A DNA stretch of 57,585 nucleotides from Escherichia phage vB_EcoS_SP8, in sequence record MT682705.1, one strand, 5' to 3'. Positions 23,980-55,126 of the stretch are shown piece after piece. A program made the position numbers and the translations under genes. Positions within the stretch are counted from its first letter, which is position 1, and each line of letters begins with the position of its first letter. The notes beneath the pieces were generated by a model. That model saw nothing but the letters and a program-made list of their open reading frames with translations. It did not search any database and was not told where the DNA came from.

Positions 23980-24267
23980 TTAAGGCAACGTGAACCAACC
24001 TAAGTTCTGCGCACCGAGCAACCATGCGTACACAATCAGTGAACCTAAAATAAGTACACTAAAGAAGTTCGCTTTCTTGCGTTTGATGTTTGCAGCTTGT
24101 GGGTTGCATACACACCATACGAAGAAATGTTTAACAACTAAATATGCAAGCGAAATGATAACAGCGTAACGCATAAACGGTACATACCAGATCACAAGAC
24201 CTAATATAATTGCAAGGATCCAGTTGATACCTAGCCATATTGCACTACTGAAGGCCAAAACGAACAT
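23980..24267 (-). CDS. small multi-pass membrane protein
   Basis: 95-aa ORF, almost entirely hydrophobic segments; strong RBS GAGGAG; first gene of the minus-strand block. Confidence 0.4.
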   Translation of the reverse strand: MFVLAFSSAIWLGINWILAIILGLVIWYVPFMRYAVIISLAYLVVKHFFVWCVCNPQAANIKRKKANFFSVLILGSLIVYAWLLGAQNLGWFTLP

Positions 24268-24415
24268 AATAGATCTCCTCTCGAGTATTTACATACGGAA
24301 TTAACTTTATACGAACAATATAGGGCAGGTGAGGTGAGGATATAAAGTGTCTAGTGACGAGATAATCTACAAATGATGAATCCTTGGCAGAGATCTAAGA
24401 GCCGCCCCGCGGCGT

Positions 24416-24488
24416 TACTATAACGTCCCGTGATCGTCAGTGAGGTGATTGTTACGTCATGTGACTGTCATGCGCTCTACTATAACGT
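24416..24488. repeat. direct repeat TACTATAACGT (2 copies about 62 bp apart) in divergent control region
   Basis: read directly in the 24.27-24.87 kb non-coding region; GTGAGGTGA also occurs twice nearby. Confidence 0.5.
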
Positions 24489-24620
24489 TGTTTATTGTTA
24501 CACGCGTTATTATTTTTTATTTGATTAGTGTGCTATCTATTACATGACTATACTATACCGTCCAGTGTAATTACATCTGTTACTATCCACCTGCCCACTA
24601 TATGCTGTCTATGTATGTGC

Positions 24621-24690
24621 TACCTGGTATTTCCGGCGTGTGCTGTTACCTGGTATTTTCAGCACGCTCGCGCTACCTGGTATTTCCGGC
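24621..24690. repeat. three direct repeats TACCTGGTATTTCCGGC at 26-27 bp spacing
   Basis: copies at about 24621, 24647 and 24674 (middle copy with 3 mismatches); upstream of the early promoter. Confidence 0.6.
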
Positions 24691-24768
24691 ACACCATCTA
24701 CTGCATAGTCCCGGATGTTATTATTATGAAACACAACTAAAAAAGTTCTAAAATATTGCAGATAATAG

Positions 24769-24797
24769 TTGCATCTGATACCCTGCTGTCATATTAT
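24769..24797 (+). promoter_or_regulatory. candidate sigma70-type early promoter
   Basis: TTGCAT, 17-bp spacer, TATTAT; followed by a 5' UTR hairpin (AAGCGGG...CCCGCTT) and RBS GGGAGA before the ATG at 24873. Confidence 0.45.
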
Positions 24798-24872
24798 AAA
24801 TGCGTAGGGTAAAGGGGGTTTTAAAGCGGGACACGGGTTCCGCGCCCGCTTCACCCGAAGGGAGATTGCATT

Positions 24873-25178
24873 ATGTCCATTATCTACTTACCGCGTTCTA
24901 TGTCCCAGTCCATGATCACCAAACGTATTATCGGCAAGCGCCTGTATCAGCTGGACCTTACTGCGGAAAAAGTCGACGGGGATTGGGGTTTCGACGAGTA
25001 TTTAGTAATGCTCCCGGGCAACGAAAAGTATTCCAGCACCCCGTTATATATTCGCATTAATGAGGACGGTACTGTTAGCTCTCACGCTGTAATGTACGGC
25101 CGAGCAGTATGCCAAGCGAATAGTCTTTGGTCTGTGTTCTGCTTTATTACAATGATAGCGAAGGCCATTCAACAATAA
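24873..25178 (+). CDS. hypothetical early protein
   Basis: 101-aa ORF, first plus-strand gene; RBS GGGAGA. Confidence 0.45.
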   Translation: MSIIYLPRSMSQSMITKRIIGKRLYQLDLTAEKVDGDWGFDEYLVMLPGNEKYSSTPLYIRINEDGTVSSHAVMYGRAVCQANSLWSVFCFITMIAKAIQQ

Positions 25179-25192
25179 TAGCGTGCTAATGG

Positions 25193-25233
25193 TTGCCCAT
25201 TGTAACAGTGGGCTCCCACTAGCAATCCGCTAG
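25193..25233 (+). promoter_or_regulatory. conserved intergenic hairpin element, copy 1
   Basis: TTGCCCATTGTAACAGTGGGC then GCAATCCGCTAG; near-identical copy at 26738-26779. Confidence 0.4.
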
Positions 25234-25254
25234 AACAACATGGAGATATTCACA

Positions 25255-25734
25255 ATGGTTACTATCACCCGTGTAGCAAAAGACGCTCGCTTCTTCGCCA
25301 CTATGTCTAACGCTCGCCGCGCCTTGAAAAAGGTTCTGGATGTAGACACAGCGACAGCTAACAGCTTTATTCACCAGGAACCGCACGAAGACGGTGGCCG
25401 CTACTGGTTCAGCGAAAGCGCCGTTAATAAGGCGGCTAGCGATCTGGTTGAAGCTGATAAAGCAACTGTCGTGGAAGTGACCACACAACAAGCTCCGGTC
25501 GCTCCCGCTAAAAGTAAAACGCGCAGCGAAACGCGCAACGGGGTCCGTCGCCCGATCAAAGGTAAATGCGCAGACGTTTGGAACGCTCTGGATAACATGT
25601 TACCTAATGGTGTGCCAACTATTGGTAACGTCCGTGACCTTGCGAAAGCTAATGGCTGGAATATTAATAACGCAACGATTGAATTCTACGCATGGCGTAA
25701 ATTCAACGGGCTCAATAATAAAGAGGGCAATTAA
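25255..25734 (+). CDS. hypothetical early protein
   Basis: start at ATG (MVTITRV) preceded by GGAGA. Confidence 0.4.
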   Translation: MVTITRVAKDARFFATMSNARRALKKVLDVDTATANSFIHQEPHEDGGRYWFSESAVNKAASDLVEADKATVVEVTTQQAPVAPAKSKTRSETRNGVRRPIKGKCADVWNALDNMLPNGVPTIGNVRDLAKANGWNINNATIEFYAWRKFNGLNNKEGN

Positions 25735-25812
25735 TTATGTTCTACTTATTAGCGTTCTTGATATTCGGAGCTCCAATAGTTGCGGGTCTGTATTATACGG
25801 AGGGTAAATAAT

Positions 25813-25998
25813 ATGGAAACTATCGTTCTGACTTGTTGGGTTGACCTGGACGATCACGAATATTGCGTGAATATTAACAACGGACCAGTCCCGGACGCAA
25901 CTTTCGCATCCTATGACGAAATGGATGCGTATGTAAAAGGTTTCCGCGAATGCGCTCGCACTGCAAATATTAACGTGACTGTAATTTTACCGGAGTGA
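25813..25998 (+). CDS. hypothetical small early protein
   Basis: start at ATG (METIVL) preceded by GGAGGG. Confidence 0.4.
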   Translation: METIVLTCWVDLDDHEYCVNINNGPVPDATFASYDEMDAYVKGFRECARTANINVTVILPE

Positions 25999-26003
25999 TT
26001 ATC

Positions 26004-26270
26004 ATGCGTAAAGCTAACAAGAATTCTTTCGTTGAAATGGCTCGTGTTGTTCTCAACCGTCAGTCCTTCTACCTGTACCACCGTCACGAATTTGATCTGT
26101 GGACTGAAGAGGAAACGTGCTGCCAGTACGAGATCCATACACGGAATGGTGTAATATTCACTTCCAGTAATTATCCGGAAGTTAAAGAATACTGGGACAA
26201 GCTGATCGCTGAAGCGTATGCTGAATTCCAGAAGCAAACTATTTACCTGATGGGCCTTCGCGCTGAGTAA
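26004..26270 (+). CDS. hypothetical small early protein
   Basis: start at ATG (MRKANK) preceded by GGAGTGA. Confidence 0.4.
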   Translation: MRKANKNSFVEMARVVLNRQSFYLYHRHEFDLWTEEETCCQYEIHTRNGVIFTSSNYPEVKEYWDKLIAEAYAEFQKQTIYLMGLRAE

Positions 26271-26305
26271 TTATTAACGTCAACATAATTTAAGGAGTGA
26301 CTATC

Positions 26306-26554
26306 ATGGCACAAGCAATTATCACCAAATTCCTGGCTCCAACTATGTCCCGTGGCGATCGTGTAAAAGCAACATGTTGGAATAGTTCCGTGACTATTGC
26401 CTGGAGTTACCAGTTGGACACATACGGAAACCACCGCGCCGCAGTGGAAGAGCTGGTCAAAAAGTTAAACGCTAAAATGGACGCCGAGTTTAAGATCGTA
26501 GCTGGTGGAGAGCTCCCGGATCAAAGCGGTTACGCGTTCATCATCACTGCATAA
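26306..26554 (+). CDS. hypothetical small early protein (paralogue-like to 26798..27043)
   Basis: start at ATG (MAQAII) preceded by AAGGAG; similar length and residue pattern to the 26798 gene product. Confidence 0.4.
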   Translation: MAQAIITKFLAPTMSRGDRVKATCWNSSVTIAWSYQLDTYGNHRAAVEELVKKLNAKMDAEFKIVAGGELPDQSGYAFIITA

Positions 26555-26564
26555 GGGGATAATT

Positions 26565-26729
26565 ATGGAACGCAACTATTTCCAGTTTATTTATCGCGGT
26601 CGTTGCTATCACATCCGTAACAAGTTTCGCAACCTGACCCGCGATCAACTTGAGTACGCTATTAATCTGGTGAGTGATGGTCACTTCGCTACACTATCAG
26701 AAGCGTTAGAATATCTGTCCGCTGAGTGA
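26565..26729 (+). CDS. hypothetical small early protein
   Basis: 54-codon ORF starting at ATG (MERNYF) preceded by AAGGGG. Confidence 0.35.
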   Translation: MERNYFQFIYRGRCYHIRNKFRNLTRDQLEYAINLVSDGHFATLSEALEYLSAE

Positions 26730-26737
26730 CATATACA

Positions 26738-26779
26738 TTGCCCATAGTAACAGTGGGCAATAATATGCAATCCGCATAG
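26738..26779 (+). promoter_or_regulatory. conserved intergenic hairpin element, copy 2
   Basis: TTGCCCATAGTAACAGTGGGCAA then GCAATCCGCATAG upstream of the 26798 gene. Confidence 0.4.
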
Positions 26780-26797
26780 TTAACTGAGGAAATTATT

Positions 26798-27043
26798 ATG
26801 CAAGCTATCCATGTAAAAACACTGTCCGCCACCGAAACGAAATGTCGTCGCTATAAAGCTGTTGGCCTTGATATGTGTGTTGTCACCCCCATCGACTACA
26901 GACTCAACAGCGAAGCGAATGCAGCTTATGCAGCGCAAGAGCTTGTGGACCGGTACAACGCTCGCGCCCAGTGGAAGGTTCGCATTGTTGGTATCGGTAC
27001 GCTTCCAGATAATACCTGGGCGGTACTATTAGATAACAAATAA
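26798..27043 (+). CDS. hypothetical small early protein
   Basis: 81-aa ORF with RBS GAGGAAA; followed by a strong intrinsic terminator. Confidence 0.45.
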   Translation: MQAIHVKTLSATETKCRRYKAVGLDMCVVTPIDYRLNSEANAAYAAQELVDRYNARAQWKVRIVGIGTLPDNTWAVLLDNK

Positions 27044-27066
27044 CTTCTAAACCATTATACAATCCG

Positions 27067-27102
27067 CGCCCTGTTGAAGTCCAACGGGGCGTTTTTGTTT
27101 TT
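27067..27102 (+). terminator. rho-independent terminator ending the early operon
   Basis: 10-bp stem CGCCCTGTTG / CAACGGGGCG (one G-U pair), 5-nt loop, followed by TTTTTGTTTTTG. Confidence 0.7.
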
Positions 27103-27596
27103 GTACCCGCACCACCTCCCGCGCTACCCTGCTGACCACATATTCCTCACCCATAACTCCACCATTCGCGCTCTAAGAACCTGAATCCCTCTTCCGTACA
27201 TTACCATTGACTCCAATTCAGTCGCCTTATACGCCCTTACAGTGATCCACTCCCTGCTTCCCTGTACGCGATTTTGCGGCATTTTCGCCCCTCACCGCCA
27301 CCCTTACACCGATCCAACCAGTTAATCGCGCTACGCGCCCCGTTTTCGCGGCTATTTTCGCTTTATGGGCGACCCGTTACCCCGATCTCAGCTACCCAAC
27401 CTCACCGAAAAGCCGGCTTTGCCCGAAAAATCCGGCATTTATACCATAAAATAGAATCGTTTTCGGGCTACAAAATTTCAAACTCGCAAATCGCTTTCAC
27501 TTCGAGAGTTACCTCAGCAAAAATCGCTTGCAATCCACTTTTCTTTTGTGTTAGACGCGCGGACGCGCATTATGCGCAGGCGCCAGGCTCTGCCCT

Positions 27597-28018
27597 GTCT
27601 ACTGACGAGCCAGATTTATAAAGTTAATAAATTCGTATATTTTCGCGTAATGTACGAAATGAAAGGGGGTAAGTGCATGAAAAATAAGGTAAAAAATGTG
27701 TGTATGTGTGTATTTATATAAATTTTATAAAGATTTTTTGTTTTTTTAGTTGTCTACTGACGACCCTACGAGACCCCTTTATAAAATTTATAAATTCCCA
27801 CGTTCCCCCCAACTCTCGAAATTTTCCCTTATTTTTCATACACTTCGCTTCGCCGTTTCGTATGTTGCTGGATCTTTATAAATTGTGCATTTTTTCACCG
27901 ATCTTTATAAATTTGCAATTTCTCACCTTCAGACTGCTGTAATTTTTGCAAAAGCAAAAACTTTGCATATACAAACACCGCAAAATGTCACAATTGCAAA
28001 TAGCAAAAACTTCGCATA
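27597..28018. repeat. cluster of direct repeats in a 1-kb non-coding region
   Basis: GTCTACTGACGA at about 27597 and 27752; GATCTTTATAAATT at about 27871 and 27900; AGCAAAAACTT(T/C)GCATA at about 27953 and 28002; TTTATAAA recurring at least 5 times. Confidence 0.6.
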
Positions 28019-28079
28019 AATTAAAACTTGGCAACTGAATTTCAAAATTAATCGATTTTATTTAGTCAAGGGTGAGGTT

Positions 28080-28700
28080 ATGCGCAATCGTAATATTGAA
28101 ATAACGCACGCACACGTACAGGAAATGTTCGGTTATGACGAACAAATGTATGCCAAAGCGGTAGCCATATTAGAACAGCACAAAGACAGCCTAAGTAATG
28201 TGGTCAAAGCGTGGAAGGAGGCTGGCCTCGTGTTGCGGCCGAATGCGGTCAAGAAGTTAGATGACGGGCGGATGTATATGTGCTGGTCGGCTCCGATGTT
28301 GGGTATGATGTTTACTGTCGACATCTACTTCGGGTACTGGTTGTTAGAGGTGGATTGTGTGATTCCGCTCGACAAGTATATGCACAGTAAAGGATTCAAC
28401 AGTTGCTTTGACGTGTGTCCTGATACGGAAGGCAACGCTGTTATGATCCTGGGCTTTAAGTGGGTCGGCGATAAGTGTGAAATTAGGCCGTTGCGATACC
28501 CGCGTGGTAAAGCCCGTCGTGCATATATTGAAGATGGTGTTGTTGGCTGGTGTGATGTACAGAAGCGTCGGATGGGTGCTAACCACATTGCGCATATCAA
28601 GGAGTGCCTCGTTAGACTTCAGGCGAATAATAGTGGTAATGTGCAGTTACAGCAAGAACTGCAAGAGCTCATTGAATACATTGATCAGTTTGGAGCGTAA
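28080..28700 (+). CDS. hypothetical protein
   Basis: 206-aa ORF, first gene after the repeat-rich non-coding region; RBS GGGTGAGG. Confidence 0.45.
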   Translation: MRNRNIEITHAHVQEMFGYDEQMYAKAVAILEQHKDSLSNVVKAWKEAGLVLRPNAVKKLDDGRMYMCWSAPMLGMMFTVDIYFGYWLLEVDCVIPLDKYMHSKGFNSCFDVCPDTEGNAVMILGFKWVGDKCEIRPLRYPRGKARRAYIEDGVVGWCDVQKRRMGANHIAHIKECLVRLQANNSGNVQLQQELQELIEYIDQFGA

Positions 28701-28701
28701 G

Positions 28702-28971
28702 ATGATTGGCGAACAAGATGTTCTTCCTAAATGGTATCCTGATTATCGTAAGTCGGATACTTTGATGCGTATTCAGTTTATCTTAGATCACCAGACTGAC
28801 TTTTCATTGTATTTAAGGGAGGAGCTACAACGAACGGATATGAAGAACCTGTGGGCCATTAAGAAACGTCTTCGTTTACGGAAACATCTTGATGACCTGC
28901 ATAAAGTTATGCAACAACTTATACGGTATAACATCCGTATTAAAGAATCGCGTGATATCTGGAGGAAGTGA
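28702..28971 (+). CDS. hypothetical protein
   Basis: start at ATG (MIGEQD) just after the upstream stop. Confidence 0.4.
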   Translation: MIGEQDVLPKWYPDYRKSDTLMRIQFILDHQTDFSLYLREELQRTDMKNLWAIKKRLRLRKHLDDLHKVMQQLIRYNIRIKESRDIWRK

Positions 28972-28979
28972 TAGTGGGA

Positions 28980-29312
28980 ATGATCAAGTTAAAATGGTAC
29001 GTGGATCCTGAGCCAACAGGACCATACAGGTCTTTCCAACGTAGAGGGTGGCCGACTTGTTACAACGGCAATCCTGATAAAGAAGATTGTGATGTGCTTG
29101 CAATAATTGTCAGTCTTAATCGTGATGGATATGAAGGTCATTACGCAAAGGCAACAGACTTACGTCTGAAAGTCCGTATATACTTCAAGATTGGAGGAGA
29201 ACACCGTACAGGACTCTCTAAGGAAGAGTTCAGTAGCATTGCCGAAGCAAAGTTATGGCTTAAAGACTTCTACAAGAAGAACCCTCAATACTATCCATTT
29301 AAGGAGAAGTGA
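28980..29312 (+). CDS. hypothetical protein
   Basis: start at ATG (MIKLKW). Confidence 0.4.
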   Translation: MIKLKWYVDPEPTGPYRSFQRRGWPTCYNGNPDKEDCDVLAIIVSLNRDGYEGHYAKATDLRLKVRIYFKIGGEHRTGLSKEEFSSIAEAKLWLKDFYKKNPQYYPFKEK

Positions 29313-35927: not shown

Positions 35928-36404
35928 ATGGATTGGAATCACTATTTTCAATATAGATGCGGAAAACTTTATTGGAAAATCAATAAAGGACGTTCTAAGG
36001 TAGGTGATGAAGCTGGATATATTCATAAATCACATGGATATATTTGTATCACACTTAATCGTAAGGAGTATTATGCCCACCGCATCATTTGGGAAATGCA
36101 CTATGGGCCAATACCAGAAGGAATGGAAATCGATCATATCTGGCATGATCGTCAAGATAACCGCATTGAGAATTTACGGTTAGTGAGTAAATCAGGTAAT
36201 GCTAGAAATCAGTCTAAGTTTAAGAATAATAGTAGTGGCGTGACTGGTGTCAGTTTTGACAAATCAGTTGGTAAATGGATAGTTCAAATTGGAGTAAATG
36301 GAATTAATAAAACTCTTGGATGTTTCGAAGAGTTTAATAAAGCTGTTGAAATTCGTCGTAAAGCAGAGATTAAATACGGTTATCATGTAAATCATGGTAA
36401 GTAA
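35928..36404 (+). CDS. HNH homing endonuclease with AP2-like DNA-binding domain
   Basis: EIDHIWHDRQDNRIENLRLVSKSGNARN (HNH) followed by SGVTGVSF...KWIVQIGVNG...FEEFNKAVEIRRKAEIKYGY (AP2-like); AT-rich. Confidence 0.6.
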   Translation: MDWNHYFQYRCGKLYWKINKGRSKVGDEAGYIHKSHGYICITLNRKEYYAHRIIWEMHYGPIPEGMEIDHIWHDRQDNRIENLRLVSKSGNARNQSKFKNNSSGVTGVSFDKSVGKWIVQIGVNGINKTLGCFEEFNKAVEIRRKAEIKYGYHVNHGK

Positions 36405-53156: not shown

Positions 53157-55126
53157 GAAAAGACGCGATTGGGTTTTTCTGGACGGATTTACCTCCCGCT
53201 AAGAAAGAGAAGAAACAGAAAGTAAAACGTCAACCAGTTGAAAGGGTATGGGAACGCCCAGACTACCTTCCAGGTCTTGATGCAGCAATGCGTTTTGCAG
53301 CTAATGATCCGCGTATGACAGACGGTGAATTAGTGGAAATGTATTTTGCACAAGAAACGTTCGTATACGATATCGAATGTTATAAGAATTATTTTCTTGT
53401 GGCGTTTAAAGGGGTTAAGTTCGGTAAGGTTTATTATCTAGAAATGACTGCCGGTCAGACACTTGACACGGAAAAATATGAATGGATAATGAAGAACTTT
53501 CGTACCGTTGGTTTCAACTCAAGAAACTACGATAATACGATGACATTCCTTGCCATTGCTGGTTTAACTGTTGACAAGCTAAAAGAAGCAAGTGACAGGA
53601 TGATCCAGGAAGAGTGGGCTCCGTGGGACATTCTTAACAGTTTTGGGGTAAAACAGTTTTGGATTGACCACATTGACGTTCAAGAAGTAGCTCCGGGCTT
53701 CGGTTCGTTGAAGCTGTATGGTGGCCGTATGCACATGCAGAAGCTCCAGGACTTACCATTCCCACCACATTGGGCGTTATCCGTAGAACAGATTGCTATT
53801 GTGCGCTTCTACTGTATTAACGACCTTGATACAACAATGGCTCTGTTTAACTCACTGGAAGAGCAAATCCATCTACGTGAGATTATGAGTGAAGAGTATA
53901 AAGTAGATCTTCGCTCTAAATCCGATGCACAGATTGCAGAAGCTGTAATCCGCCATGAAATGAAGGAAATGCTGGGCTTCGTACCACAGAAGGGTATGGT
54001 GGAAGTTGGCAGAACCTTTAGGTACAATCCTCCAGTGTGGTTAGGTTTCCAAACGCCACTAATGAAGTCCGTATTTCAGGTTGTGCTTGATAGTTACTTC
54101 CGAGTCGCAGAGGATGGTAAAATTAAGCAACCATCGACAATGAACTCTCTGAAGTTTACAATCAATCAGACAACTTACAACATGGGTATCGGTGGTCTGC
54201 ACTCATGCGAAGAGTTAATGGAGATTGTACCATCTGAAGATGAAGAGATGTGGGATGCTGACGTAACGTCATACTACCCGATCTGTATCATTAACCAGCG
54301 ACTATATCCTGAGCACCTGGGCCCGCGCTTTATAGATATTTTCGTTAAGATCGTAGAACGACGTATTGCAGCTAAGATGGCTCATGACGATAAGACCTCA
54401 CAGACTCTTAAGATCGTTATTAACGGTTCTTATGGTAAGTTCGGTTCACCGTTCTCTATTCTGTATGCACCGCATCTTATTATTCAGACCACATTGACAG
54501 GTCAGTTGGCTCTGCTTATGCTCATTGAAACACTAGAGCTTAACGGCATTCAGGTCGTTAGTGCTAACACGGATGGTATCGTTATTAAGCCTTGCAAAGC
54601 TAAGAAGCAATTAATGACGGATATCATTAAGTGGTGGGAAGAAACAACTGGCTTTGAAATGGAGTTGAACCAATACCTGCGTCTTAACTCTGCAAACGTC
54701 AACAACTACGTCGCAATCAAAGCAGATGGTAAAGCCAAGCGTAAAGGTTGGTTCGCAGAGACAGGTCTAGCTAAGAACGCGGAAGGTGAGATTATTATGG
54801 ATGCTGTGGTCAACCTTCTCCGTGACGGTACACCAATTGCTAAAACTATCACAGAGTGTCAGGACATTCGTAAGTTTGTTTGTATCAAGACAGCTAACGG
54901 TGGCGCTGCATGGAATAGTGAGCCATTGGGTAAAGTCGTTCGCTGGTATTATACAAAAGAGGAAGTACCTGAGATACTAATAGTCAAGAGTGGTGGTCGT
55001 GTCGGTAAGACAGCAGGGGGTAAACCTATGATGGAACTCACTGACCAGTTACCGCCGGATCTCAACCACGAAGTGTACATAGCTAAAGCGGAAAAATTGC
55101 TGGAAAAACTCGCATACGCCGCTTAA
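53153..55126 (+). CDS. DNA polymerase, family B-like
   Basis: Exo I-like YDIECY; motif A DVTSYYP; motif B KIVINGSYGKFG; motif C SANTDGIVI. Confidence 0.7.
   Translation: MRKDAIGFFWTDLPPAKKEKKQKVKRQPVERVWERPDYLPGLDAAMRFAANDPRMTDGELVEMYFAQETFVYDIECYKNYFLVAFKGVKFGKVYYLEMTAGQTLDTEKYEWIMKNFRTVGFNSRNYDNTMTFLAIAGLTVDKLKEASDRMIQEEWAPWDILNSFGVKQFWIDHIDVQEVAPGFGSLKLYGGRMHMQKLQDLPFPPHWALSVEQIAIVRFYCINDLDTTMALFNSLEEQIHLREIMSEEYKVDLRSKSDAQIAEAVIRHEMKEMLGFVPQKGMVEVGRTFRYNPPVWLGFQTPLMKSVFQVVLDSYFRVAEDGKIKQPSTMNSLKFTINQTTYNMGIGGLHSCEELMEIVPSEDEEMWDADVTSYYPICIINQRLYPEHLGPRFIDIFVKIVERRIAAKMAHDDKTSQTLKIVINGSYGKFGSPFSILYAPHLIIQTTLTGQLALLMLIETLELNGIQVVSANTDGIVIKPCKAKKQLMTDIIKWWEETTGFEMELNQYLRLNSANVNNYVAIKADGKAKRKGWFAETGLAKNAEGEIIMDAVVNLLRDGTPIAKTITECQDIRKFVCIKTANGGAAWNSEPLGKVVRWYYTKEEVPEILIVKSGGRVGKTAGGKPMMELTDQLPPDLNHEVYIAKAEKLLEKLAYAA

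What the first reader, a model, noticed from the sequence alone, without database searches (positions are those of the whole stretch)
24268..24872. Divergent control region with iteron-like repeats and an early promoter
About 600 bp separate the first minus-strand gene from the first plus-strand gene. The region holds three copies of TACCTGGTATTTCCGGC at 26-27 bp spacing, two copies of TACTATAACGT, two copies of GTGAGGTGA, and a sigma70-like promoter (TTGCAT-17-TATTAT) followed by a 5' UTR hairpin. Regularly spaced repeats just upstream of the promoter suggest operator sites for a phage or host regulator that controls the early/late switch.
Basis: seen in the sequence. Interest (0 to 1): 0.5.

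Follow-up and report, generated by a model that had tools for sequence, protein, structure and literature searches.

The report
Phage 9g-type genome end and early promoter
This 605-bp gap is the already-described junction of a 9g-like E. coli phage, where the packaged DNA begins and early transcription starts; the three regularly spaced repeats are real and conserved but dispensable, probably protein-binding sites, and are a modest new detail.

Summary
The window is a Nonagvirus (phage 9g-like; 94-97% identical to JenK1, SE1 and 9g).

The physical left end of packaged DNA, mapped independently in 9g, HdSG1 and HdK1, corresponds to window 24398|24399. The region is therefore the left boundary of a ~3.4-kb direct terminal repeat (24399-27785). 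The 80 bp around the cut are about 100% conserved.

The GTGAGGTGA pair flanks the cut and persists in relatives whose TerS is only 62% identical, so it likely belongs to the packaging module.

The promoter TTGCAT-17-TAYTAT is well supported. Its hexamers are invariant in 19 genomes, while JenP1 has an unrelated spacer. A stable hairpin follows it.

The TACCTGGTAT units occur nowhere else in the genome, and their core is near-invariant in 49 units. Their number varies: 3, 2, 1, or 0 in JenP1. JenP1's terminase small subunit is nonetheless 98% identical. The units are therefore non-essential and not packaging sites. They are not coding and have no host or plasmid counterpart.

They are most likely accessory binding sites that modulate the adjacent promoter block; a lambda-like origin is the main rival. 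No binding protein was identified and no transcript data exist.

The parts
24268..24872 (.). Whole non-coding gap between the late-side gene (95 aa, minus) and the first early gene E1 (101 aa, plus). It is more conserved than the flanking genes.
   Evidence: Conservation profile over 18 genomes: 0.89-1.0 in the gap against 0.7-0.9 in the coding flanks.
24398..24399 (.). Physical left end of packaged DNA, which is also the left boundary of the direct terminal repeat (the window reads ...GAGATCTAA|GAGCCGCCCCGCGG, with 24399 as the first base of the packaged DNA). Assigned by homology.
   Evidence: The 9g read-start pile-up at record position 28,243 (PMC4276943) maps to window 24399. The record ends of HdSG1 and HdK1 map to the same base.
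24399..27785 (+). Direct terminal repeat (~3.39 kb). It carries the promoter block, seven small early genes (24873-27043) and a terminator-like hairpin with a T-run at 27064-27090.
   Evidence: HdSG1 has a 3363-bp and HdK1 a 3367-bp 100%-identical terminal repeat. Both boundaries map to window 24399 and ~27785.
24378..24470 (.). Near-invariant block straddling the cut, the probable terminase recognition and cleavage module. It includes the short GC-rich inverted repeat GCCGC-CCC-GCGGC (24401-13) and the first TACTATAACGT copy (24416-26).
   Evidence: Identical in all 13 aligned genomes apart from three polymorphic sites. Conservation 0.98-1.0. Block-wise conserved in K9PH25C2 and Ec1-ASingh. 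The hairpin itself is not significant.
24328..24362 (+). Left copy of an imperfect ~32-bp direct repeat (GTGAGGTGA ... GTCTAGTGACGA). It ends 39 bp left of the cut.
   Evidence: local alignment score reached by 1 of 500 shuffles. The GTGAGG pair with GTCTAsTGrCGA between its copies is found in most of 10 distant relatives.
24439..24471 (+). Right copy of the same repeat (GTGAGGTGA ... GTCATGTGAC). It starts 40 bp right of the cut. TCGTCAGT (24434-41) is an inverted copy of ACTGACGA.
24478..24586 (+). Two ~36-bp units (24478-24513 and 24551-24586) that begin with TACTATAACGT / TACTATACCGT, with an AT-rich stretch between them. Function unknown.
   Evidence: JenP1 has three such units. Related TAGTAAC/TTACAC units occur in distant relatives. 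AT-rich stretch 24507-24546.
24583..24591 (+). Weak DnaA-box-like 9-mer, CTATCCACC (7/9 match to TTATCCACA).
   Evidence: Read from the sequence. The box core is mutated in PD328 and ESCO3, so support is weak.
24619..24637 (+). Array unit 1, GCTACCTGGTATTTCCGGC. It contains the 9-bp palindrome TACCTGGTA.
   Evidence: The 3' part varies among relatives.
24645..24663 (+). Array unit 2, GTTACCTGGTATTTTCAGC.
24672..24690 (+). Array unit 3, GCTACCTGGTATTTCCGGC. It is the best-conserved unit, the one retained in the 1-unit variant, and the one homologous to the single unit in L039.
24717..24768 (.). AT-rich, almost invariant block between the array and the early promoter. It is the 6th least stable 40-mer of the genome.
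24723..24752 (-). Candidate leftward sigma70 promoter (TTTAGA-18-CATAAT), equivalent to 9g's annotated 'Pl'. Its transcript would cross the array at about +26 to +97.
   Evidence: A consensus match only; no transcript data exist.
24770..24798 (+). Early promoter P_E: TTGCAT, 17 nt, TA(T/C)TAT.
   Evidence: Hexamers and spacer length are invariant in 19 genomes while spacer bases vary. JenP1 keeps both hexamers with an unrelated spacer.
24807..24856 (+). Stable GC-rich hairpin that would begin 1-3 nt after the predicted transcript start, followed by the Shine-Dalgarno sequence AAGGGAG (24858-64).
   Evidence: -32 kcal/mol, z -3.4. Retained in JenP1 and FritzHoffmann although their neighbouring sequence differs. 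No covariation, and no Rfam match.

Best explanation
The region is the junction where the unique late arm of a 9g-type phage meets the left boundary of its ~3.4-kb direct terminal repeat.

Reading left to right, it holds:
1. A near-invariant packaging module. The terminase cut at 24398|24399 is flanked about 40 bp on each side by an imperfect ~32-bp direct repeat that contains GTGAGGTGA.
2. Two ~36-bp TACTATAACGT units with an AT-rich stretch between them.
3. Three 19-bp sites, each with the palindrome TACCTGGTA. Their spacing of 26-27 bp is about 2.5 helical turns.
4. An AT-rich block with a candidate leftward promoter.
5. The early promoter TTGCAT-17-TAYTAT. Its transcript begins with a stabilising hairpin and encodes seven small early proteins inside the repeat.

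The three sites are most likely binding sites for a dimeric DNA-binding protein, either from the phage (retained in JenP1) or from the host. Bound protein would modulate the adjacent promoter block. The most plausible mode is a roadblock or brake on leftward transcription heading off the genome end or into the late arm. Upstream modulation of the early promoter is an alternative or additional mode.

The array is a lineage-specific accessory element, not an essential switch.

Shown: the position of the genome end, the terminal repeat, conservation of the promoter hexamers, conservation of the site core, variation in unit number, and the non-coding status. Inferred: that a protein binds the sites, which protein it is, and the direction of any regulatory effect.

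The confidence of 0.55 is for the whole statement. The genome-end and promoter parts alone would rate about 0.85, and the binding-site role of the array about 0.45.
For: - Genome end: three independent mappings converge on window 24399. The terminal repeat is 3363 bp in HdSG1 and 3367 bp in HdK1.
- Packaging module: conservation is about 1.0 at 24380-24459. Its motifs persist in relatives whose TerS is 62% identical.
- Promoter: both hexamers are invariant in 19 genomes, and JenP1 has an unrelated spacer. The hairpin folds with z -3.4.
- Array is not chance: 3 exact cores against 0.10 expected.
- Array core under selection: TACCTGGTAT is conserved in 48-49 of 49 units from 18 genomes, while the unit flanks vary.
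- Deeper ancestry: one homologous unit survives in the otherwise unalignable gap of relative L039, which shares 63% E2 identity.
- Dispensable: clean whole-unit deletions leave 2 or 1 units, and JenP1 has none.
- Not coding: the GTG start is lost in 10 of 18 relatives, and variable sites fall 15/11/16 across codon positions against 16/11/51 in gene E1.
- Not a packaging signal: JenP1's TerS is 98.4% identical to the window's.
- Not borrowed: no match in E. coli genomes or plasmids.
Against: - Gene presence/absence found no phage gene that tracks the array.
- The array lies 80-150 bp upstream of the P_E -35 hexamer, too far for simple occlusion.
- The leftward promoter is only a 9/12 consensus match.
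- A spacing of 2.5 helical turns puts adjacent sites on opposite faces of the DNA, which is unusual for cooperative repressors.
- No published transcript maps were found for this genus.
- JenP1 shows that the phage lives without the array.
Confidence: 0.55

Rival explanations
1. The array is the iteron part of a lambda-type replication origin. Palindrome-containing repeats would bind a phage initiator, and the adjacent AT-rich block (24717-24768) would melt, helped by transcription from the flanking promoters. Because the origin would lie in the terminal repeat, each genome would carry two copies.
For: The units are 19 bp long, each with a dyad, and repeat directly at regular spacing. AT-rich, low-stability DNA lies on both sides, including the 6th least stable 40-mer of the genome. 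A DnaA-box-like 9-mer lies 30 bp upstream. [quoted passage not shown]
Against: JenP1 lacks both the array and the AT-rich block yet replicates. Other relatives survive with 1-2 units. No initiator-like (Rep or O-like) family was found in the adjacent genes. No gene co-varies with the array. The DnaA-like box matches only 7/9 and is mutated in two relatives. Nine of ten more distant relatives with the same replication genes lack the unit.
Confidence: 0.17
2. The array is an accessory packaging signal: terminase small-subunit binding sites comparable to lambda's cosB R sites, positioned 220-290 bp inside the cut.
For: It lies close to the mapped cut site. It consists of three direct repeats, as in lambda cosB (from my own knowledge). 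The cut itself is surrounded by other conserved repeats.
Against: JenP1's TerS is 98.4% identical to the window's, as close as any array-bearing relative, yet JenP1 has no array. Unit number varies from 1 to 3 with no matching change in TerS. The motifs that do track the terminase lineage are the GTGAGGTGA and GTCTAsTGACGA elements next to the cut, not this array.
Confidence: 0.05
3. The array has no function of its own. A single ancestral unit was amplified by slippage or unequal recombination, and the copies are conserved only because the genomes are closely related.
For: One unit is present in L039. Unit number rises and falls by whole units. All array-bearing genomes are 90-97% identical overall.
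Against: Within the units, the 10-bp core is invariant while the neighbouring 3' positions and spacers vary across the same genomes. The single unit in L039 is conserved amid otherwise unalignable DNA.
Confidence: 0.12
4. The repeats lie inside a small protein-coding gene, the 70-aa ORF 24528-24740, which is annotated as a CDS in phage ChristophMerian.
For: The ORF is open in most relatives and is annotated in one GenBank record.
Against: The GTG start is GTA in 10 of 18 relatives. There is no Shine-Dalgarno sequence. Variable sites fall 15/11/16 across codon positions, against 16/11/51 in the real gene E1. The 26-nt spacing puts the repeats in different reading frames. The ORF is broken in the deletion variants.
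Confidence: 0.02

Closest known systems
The 603-bp early/late intergenic region and physical left end of phage 9g (Kulikov et al. 2014, PMC4276943)
   Same: It is the homologous sequence, 94-96% identical. The end position is the same, and so is the layout of divergent early and late gene blocks with predicted divergent promoters.
   Different: That paper does not mention the short repeats; a text search for iteron, operator and palindrome found none. Its rightward BPROM promoter corresponds to window 24521-24555, not to the comparatively supported 24770-24798 promoter. It could not determine the size of the terminal repeat.
Terminal-repeat early regions of T5- and T7-type phages: a genome end followed by host-RNA-polymerase early promoters and early takeover genes
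   Same: The layout is the same: an exact genome end, strong-looking sigma70-type promoters within a few hundred bp, and small early genes. As in T5, these early genes lie inside a long terminal repeat. This comparison rests on my general knowledge of T5 and T7.
   Different: There is no sequence or protein homology. The repeat is 3.4 kb, against about 10 kb in T5 and 160 bp in T7. Two-step DNA entry and transcription-driven entry are untested here.
Lambda-type operator or iteron arrays: OR/OL triple operators, and the four dyad-symmetric ori iterons next to an AT-rich region
   Same: It has three to four regularly spaced sites of about 17-19 bp, each with internal dyad symmetry, next to promoters and an AT-rich block.
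   Different: The sites do not overlap the core of the supported promoter. No Cro, CI or O-like gene was found. The spacing is 26-27 bp. The array is dispensable in a natural relative.
Lambda cosB R sites, the terminase small-subunit binding repeats
   Same: Three direct repeats lie near a terminase cut site.
   Different: They fail the co-variation test with TerS and lie 220-290 bp from the cut. The GTGAGGTGA-containing repeats next to the cut are better candidates for that role.

Membership tests
Nonagvirus (9g-type) genome terminus / left boundary of the terminal repeat | Sequence homologous to experimentally mapped virion DNA ends | tested here: met
   The 9g read-start hot spot (28,243) and the record ends of HdSG1 and HdK1 all map to window 24399.
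Nonagvirus (9g-type) genome terminus / left boundary of the terminal repeat | Ends demonstrated for this particular phage (read pile-up, doubled coverage over the repeat) | not testable with these tools
   No reads are available for the window. The assignment rests on homology: 100% identity over 24380-24419 in all relatives.
Sigma70-type early promoter | -35 and -10 hexamers at 17 +/- 1 bp | tested here: met
   TTGCAT (3/6), 17 nt, TATTAT (5/6) at 24770-24798. It falls below the scan's threshold because of the weak -35 hexamer.
Sigma70-type early promoter | Hexamers and spacer length conserved while spacer sequence drifts | tested here: met
   19 genomes compared. JenP1 has an entirely different 17-nt spacer with identical hexamers.
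Sigma70-type early promoter | Mapped transcription start | not testable with these tools
   No transcript-start or RNA-seq study of the genus was found.
Operator array of a phage repressor (lambda OR/OL type) | Sites with dyad symmetry | tested here: met
   Each unit contains the 9-bp palindrome TACCTGGTA.
Operator array of a phage repressor (lambda OR/OL type) | Sites overlap the core promoter they control | tested here: not met
   The array ends 80 bp upstream of the P_E -35 hexamer. It lies downstream (about +26 to +97) of a leftward promoter that is only predicted.
Operator array of a phage repressor (lambda OR/OL type) | Cognate DNA-binding regulator encoded nearby and co-varying with the sites | tested here: inconclusive
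Iteron-type replication origin (lambda ori / plasmid type) | Three or more direct repeats of 17-22 bp next to an AT-rich unwinding region | tested here: met
   Three 19-bp units, with AT-rich 24717-24768 ranking as the 6th least stable 40-mer. The spacing is 26-27 bp, not the roughly 22 bp usual for plasmid iterons.
Iteron-type replication origin (lambda ori / plasmid type) | Cognate initiator gene | tested here: not met
   No Rep or O-like family among the adjacent early proteins.
Iteron-type replication origin (lambda ori / plasmid type) | Retained in all relatives that share the replication machinery | tested here: not met
   Absent from JenP1. One or two units in L024 and L031. Absent from 9 of 10 more distant relatives.
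Terminase small-subunit binding repeats (cosB / pac type) | Co-variation with the TerS sequence | tested here: not met
   JenP1's TerS is 98.4% identical, yet JenP1 has no array.
Known RNA family (5' leader) | Match to a curated covariance model | tested here: not met
   No Rfam match at E <= 1 in 24200-28200.

The most novel reading that the evidence does not exclude
The three TACCTGGTA sites would form a timing gate tied to the terminal-repeat layout. The promoter block exists in both repeat copies. The leftward promoter in the right-hand copy (or in circularised or concatemeric DNA) can read into the late arm, whereas the left-hand copy only reads off the DNA end. A protein bound at the three sites would block this leftward transcription until an early product or replication removes it. 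DNA-end topology plus a roadblock would then set the early-to-late switch. Alternatively, the same sites could be a lambda-like origin present twice per genome.
Probability: 0.15. Interest if true: 0.5.

Novelty: new member of a known kind. Interest (0 to 1): 0.3.

Why it matters
The value is mainly in annotation. Most GenBank records of this genus start at the terminase gene and show this gap as empty or filled with spurious small CDSs. In fact it holds the genome end, the packaging signals and the real early promoter.

Knowing the exact end and the 3.4-kb repeat matters for engineering these archaeosine-DNA phages. These phages are of interest because their DNA resists restriction enzymes. 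It also matters for interpreting early-gene ('takeover') expression.

The three-site array is a clean, dispensable and naturally variable cis-element. It could be used to look for an unknown DNA-binding regulator. Nothing here suggests a new kind of mechanism.

Tried and rejected
- Rfam scan of 24200-28200: no match.
- Pfam and PHROGs on 15 neighbouring proteins: only families of unknown function.
- Search for a phage gene absent from JenP1 but present in all array-bearing genomes: the only candidate (28968-29312) occurs in just 3 of them, so it was rejected.
- Array against E. coli genomes and plasmids: no match.
- Two-core pattern in GTDB genomes and IMG/VR: the only hits outside Nonagvirus are unrelated taxa or coding repeats. 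There were no Enterobacterales hits.
- A hairpin formed by the spacers flanking unit 2: not conserved among relatives, rejected (reading).
- Covariation in the 5' hairpin: none; the variable positions do not compensate.
- The GC-rich inverted repeat at the cut as a DNA hairpin: not significant, z -0.4.
- Seuratvirus comparison: ECP2304 has a 3695-bp terminal repeat, but its boundary lies outside the divergent gap, so the layout does not transfer.
- Matching the core from memory to E. coli regulator motifs (LexA, Fis, IHF, FadR, NarL, ArcA): no convincing fit. This was not a formal test.

Full report
**Identity of the window.** The 1.1 kb around the finding is 94-97% identical to twelve distinct Nonagvirus isolates (17 GenBank records, several isolates being held twice): JenK1, SE1, ChristophMerian, 9g, JenP2, HdSG1 and others. 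These are siphoviruses of subfamily Queuovirinae whose DNA carries archaeosine. No phage outside this genus matches the gap at the DNA level, even with sensitive blastn.

**The observation.** All listed features are present.
- The gap is 605 bp (24268-24872), lying between a 95-aa minus-strand ORF and a 101-aa plus-strand ORF.
- The array consists of 19-nt units at 24619, 24645 and 24672, spaced 26 and 27 nt apart.
- The 10-nt core TACCTGGTAT occurs exactly three times in 57.6 kb, all in the array. The chance expectation is 0.10, and 0 of 100 shuffles reached 3.
- TACTATAACGT has two exact copies plus one 10/11 copy in the gap.
- GTGAGGTGA occurs only at 24329 and 24440.
- TTGCAT-17-TATTAT lies at 24770-24798, and the hairpin at 24807-24856 folds at -32 kcal/mol with z -3.4.

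Kulikov et al. 2014 (PMC4276943) found a sharp pile-up of read starts at position 28,243 of their 9g assembly. They concluded that this is the physical left end of the packaged DNA. It lies 473 bp before the first early gene, inside a 603-bp intergenic region for which they predicted two divergent promoters. They inferred a terminal repeat of unknown size.
- Position 28,243 maps to window 24399.
- The GenBank records of HdSG1 and HdK1 were built from points where most long reads ended abruptly (Korf et al. 2019, PMC6563267). Both end at exactly this base.
- Those records carry 100%-identical terminal repeats of 3363 and 3367 bp. The boundaries map to window 24399 and about 27785.

The gap is therefore the junction between the late arm and the left boundary of a ~3.4-kb direct terminal repeat. 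That repeat contains the promoter block, seven small early genes (24873-27043) and a terminator-like hairpin. The region is 'divergent' only in circular or concatemeric DNA.

**The module around the cut.**
- In 18 relatives the gap is more conserved (0.89-1.0) than the flanking genes (0.7-0.9). The peak of about 1.0 lies at 24380-24459, straddling the cut.
- The two GTGAGGTGA copies are the cores of an imperfect ~32-bp direct repeat (24328-24362 and 24439-24471). These end 39 bp before the cut and begin 40 bp after it (the score was reached by 1 of 500 shuffles).
- GTCTAsTGACGA occurs three times in the genome. One copy lies 50 bp before the left boundary and one lies 34 bp before the right boundary. 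An inverted partial copy lies 35 bp after the left cut.
- In more distant relatives (TerS 62% identical, E2 52-67% identical) the gap cannot be aligned by BLAST. Even so, most of them keep a GTGAGG pair with GTCTAsTGrCGA between the copies, and the K9PH25C2 group also keeps the blocks around the cut.

I infer, without direct proof, that these elements and the first TACTATAACGT copy form the terminase recognition and cleavage module.

**The early promoter.** Across 19 genomes both hexamers (TTGCAT and TA[T/C]TAT) and the 17-nt spacer length are invariant, while spacer bases vary. JenP1 has replaced everything upstream and has an unrelated spacer, yet it keeps both hexamers.

This is better comparative support than exists for the BPROM-predicted rightward promoter annotated in 9g, which corresponds to window 24521-24555.

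The hairpin would begin 1-3 nt after the predicted start. A hairpin in that position usually protects a transcript's 5' end from degradation; that point is general knowledge, not something tested here. The hairpin is retained in JenP1 and FritzHoffmann although the neighbouring sequence differs. It shows no covariation, and it has no Rfam match.

**The three-unit array.**
- Core conservation: stacking 49 units from 18 genomes gives G[C/T]TACCTGGTAT[T/g]T[T/C]CGGC. TACCTGGTAT is conserved in 48-49 of 49 units, whereas the 3' part and the spacers vary. Each core contains the palindrome TACCTGGTA, which suits a dimeric binding protein.
- Variable unit number: most genomes have three units. One metagenomic contig has two after an exact one-unit deletion, one has a single unit after a two-unit deletion, and one has a mutated third core.
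- JenP1: this viable phage has none. Window 24598-24788 is replaced by about 700 nt that carries an unrelated 102-aa ORF.
- Deeper ancestry: one more distant relative, L039, keeps a single recognisable unit (CACCTGGTATGTTCGGCACAC) about 100 bp upstream of its early promoter, within otherwise unalignable DNA. Nine others have none.

The unit is therefore under selection, but the array is lineage-specific and dispensable.

**Tests of the alternatives.**
- Packaging sites: JenP1's terminase small subunit is 98.4% identical to the window's, as close as in any array-bearing phage. The array is therefore not needed for packaging.
- Coding: the 70-aa ORF covering the array is annotated in ChristophMerian. 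It loses its GTG start in 10 of 18 relatives. Its variable sites fall 15/11/16 across codon positions, against 16/11/51 in E1. It is broken in the deletion variants.
- Borrowed host or plasmid element: no match in 5,426 E. coli genomes or 72,556 plasmids. The two-core pattern gave no Enterobacterales hit in GTDB genomes.
- Dedicated phage binding protein: comparing the window with the complete JenP1 genome gave one candidate gene (28968-29312). It is present in only three array-bearing phages.
- Origin of replication: the layout of dyad-containing repeats next to an AT-rich block, the 6th least stable 40-mer of the genome, together with a weak DnaA-like box, resembles lambda ori. Against this, no initiator family was found, and loss of the whole segment in JenP1 argues against an essential origin.

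**Most likely mechanism.** The array is a set of accessory protein-binding sites acting on the adjacent, almost invariant AT-rich promoter block. Relative to the predicted leftward promoter (24752-24723, minus strand), the sites lie at about +26 to +97, which is a roadblock position. Relative to P_E they lie at -80 to -150. That protein binds, which protein it is, and the direction of any effect are all inferred. No transcript data exist for the genus.

**Verdict.** The region's nature as an early/late junction with a genome end and divergent promoters is already published for 9g. The new points are:
- the comparatively supported early promoter and its leader hairpin;
- the repeat structure around the cut;
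- the three-site array with its natural 0-3 variation in unit number.

These refine a known kind of phage control and terminus region and do not amount to a new mechanism.

Noticed in passing
window 27044-28080: A ~1-kb non-coding, repeat-rich stretch straddles the inner boundary of the terminal repeat (27785|27786). It holds a terminator-like hairpin (27064-27090), GTCTACTGACGA at 27597 and 27752, GATCTTTATAAATT twice (27873 and 27901), several TTTATAAA copies, and the least stable 40-mer of the whole genome (27711-27750). The layout recalls the repeat-rich injection-stop region that follows the pre-early genes of phage T5.
   Followed up: partly
L012 (JenP1) 1830-2520; L011 (FritzHoffmann) 2270-2443: JenP1 replaces window 24598-24788 with about 700 nt that carries its own upstream signals and a 102-aa ORF with no Pfam or PHROG family. 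FritzHoffmann replaces the first early gene E1 with an unrelated 57-aa ORF while keeping the promoter and hairpin. The promoter therefore acts as a boundary for swapping gene cassettes.
   Followed up: partly
window 25255-25734 (+): Early protein E2 (159 aa) has two conserved domains joined by a variable Ala/Pro-rich linker. Its C-terminal domain (about residues 88-150) is found in over 100 phage records across Queuovirinae and in Vibrio, Pseudomonas and other siphoviruses, usually near a genome end and often in two copies per record. One record labels it 'transcriptional activator'. Its fold search was inconclusive.
   Followed up: partly
L002 (ChristophMerian) 1831-2579; L011 1831-2151: The BASEL-collection records annotate small CDSs inside this gap: 99 nt, 213 nt, and a 5'-extended E1. 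The 213-nt ORF fails the coding tests, and the E1 extension is closed by a stop codon in the window. These annotations are probably spurious.
   Followed up: yes
window 24317-24346 (-): A second leftward promoter-like site (TTTATA-18-TATATT) lies left of the genome end, in the unique region 40-80 bp upstream of the 95-aa gene. The first GTGAGGTGA copy sits in its spacer.
   Followed up: no
L036/L037 (Seuratvirus ECP2304): The sister genus has a 3695-bp terminal repeat in this record, but its boundary lies beyond the divergent gap. The position of the end relative to the promoters therefore differs between the two genera.
   Followed up: partly
window 26306-26554 and 26798-27043 (+): Two early genes inside the terminal repeat are paralogues, both matching the N-terminal half of PHROG 3199 (unknown function). 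The 9g record calls the homologue of the first a 'TetR family regulator', but Pfam gives no support for that.
   Followed up: no
window 35928-36404 (+); 54650-54723 (-): A 158-aa HNH/AP2-type homing-endonuclease-like ORF is absent from JenP1. A single tRNA-Ala(TGC) gene is also present.
   Followed up: no
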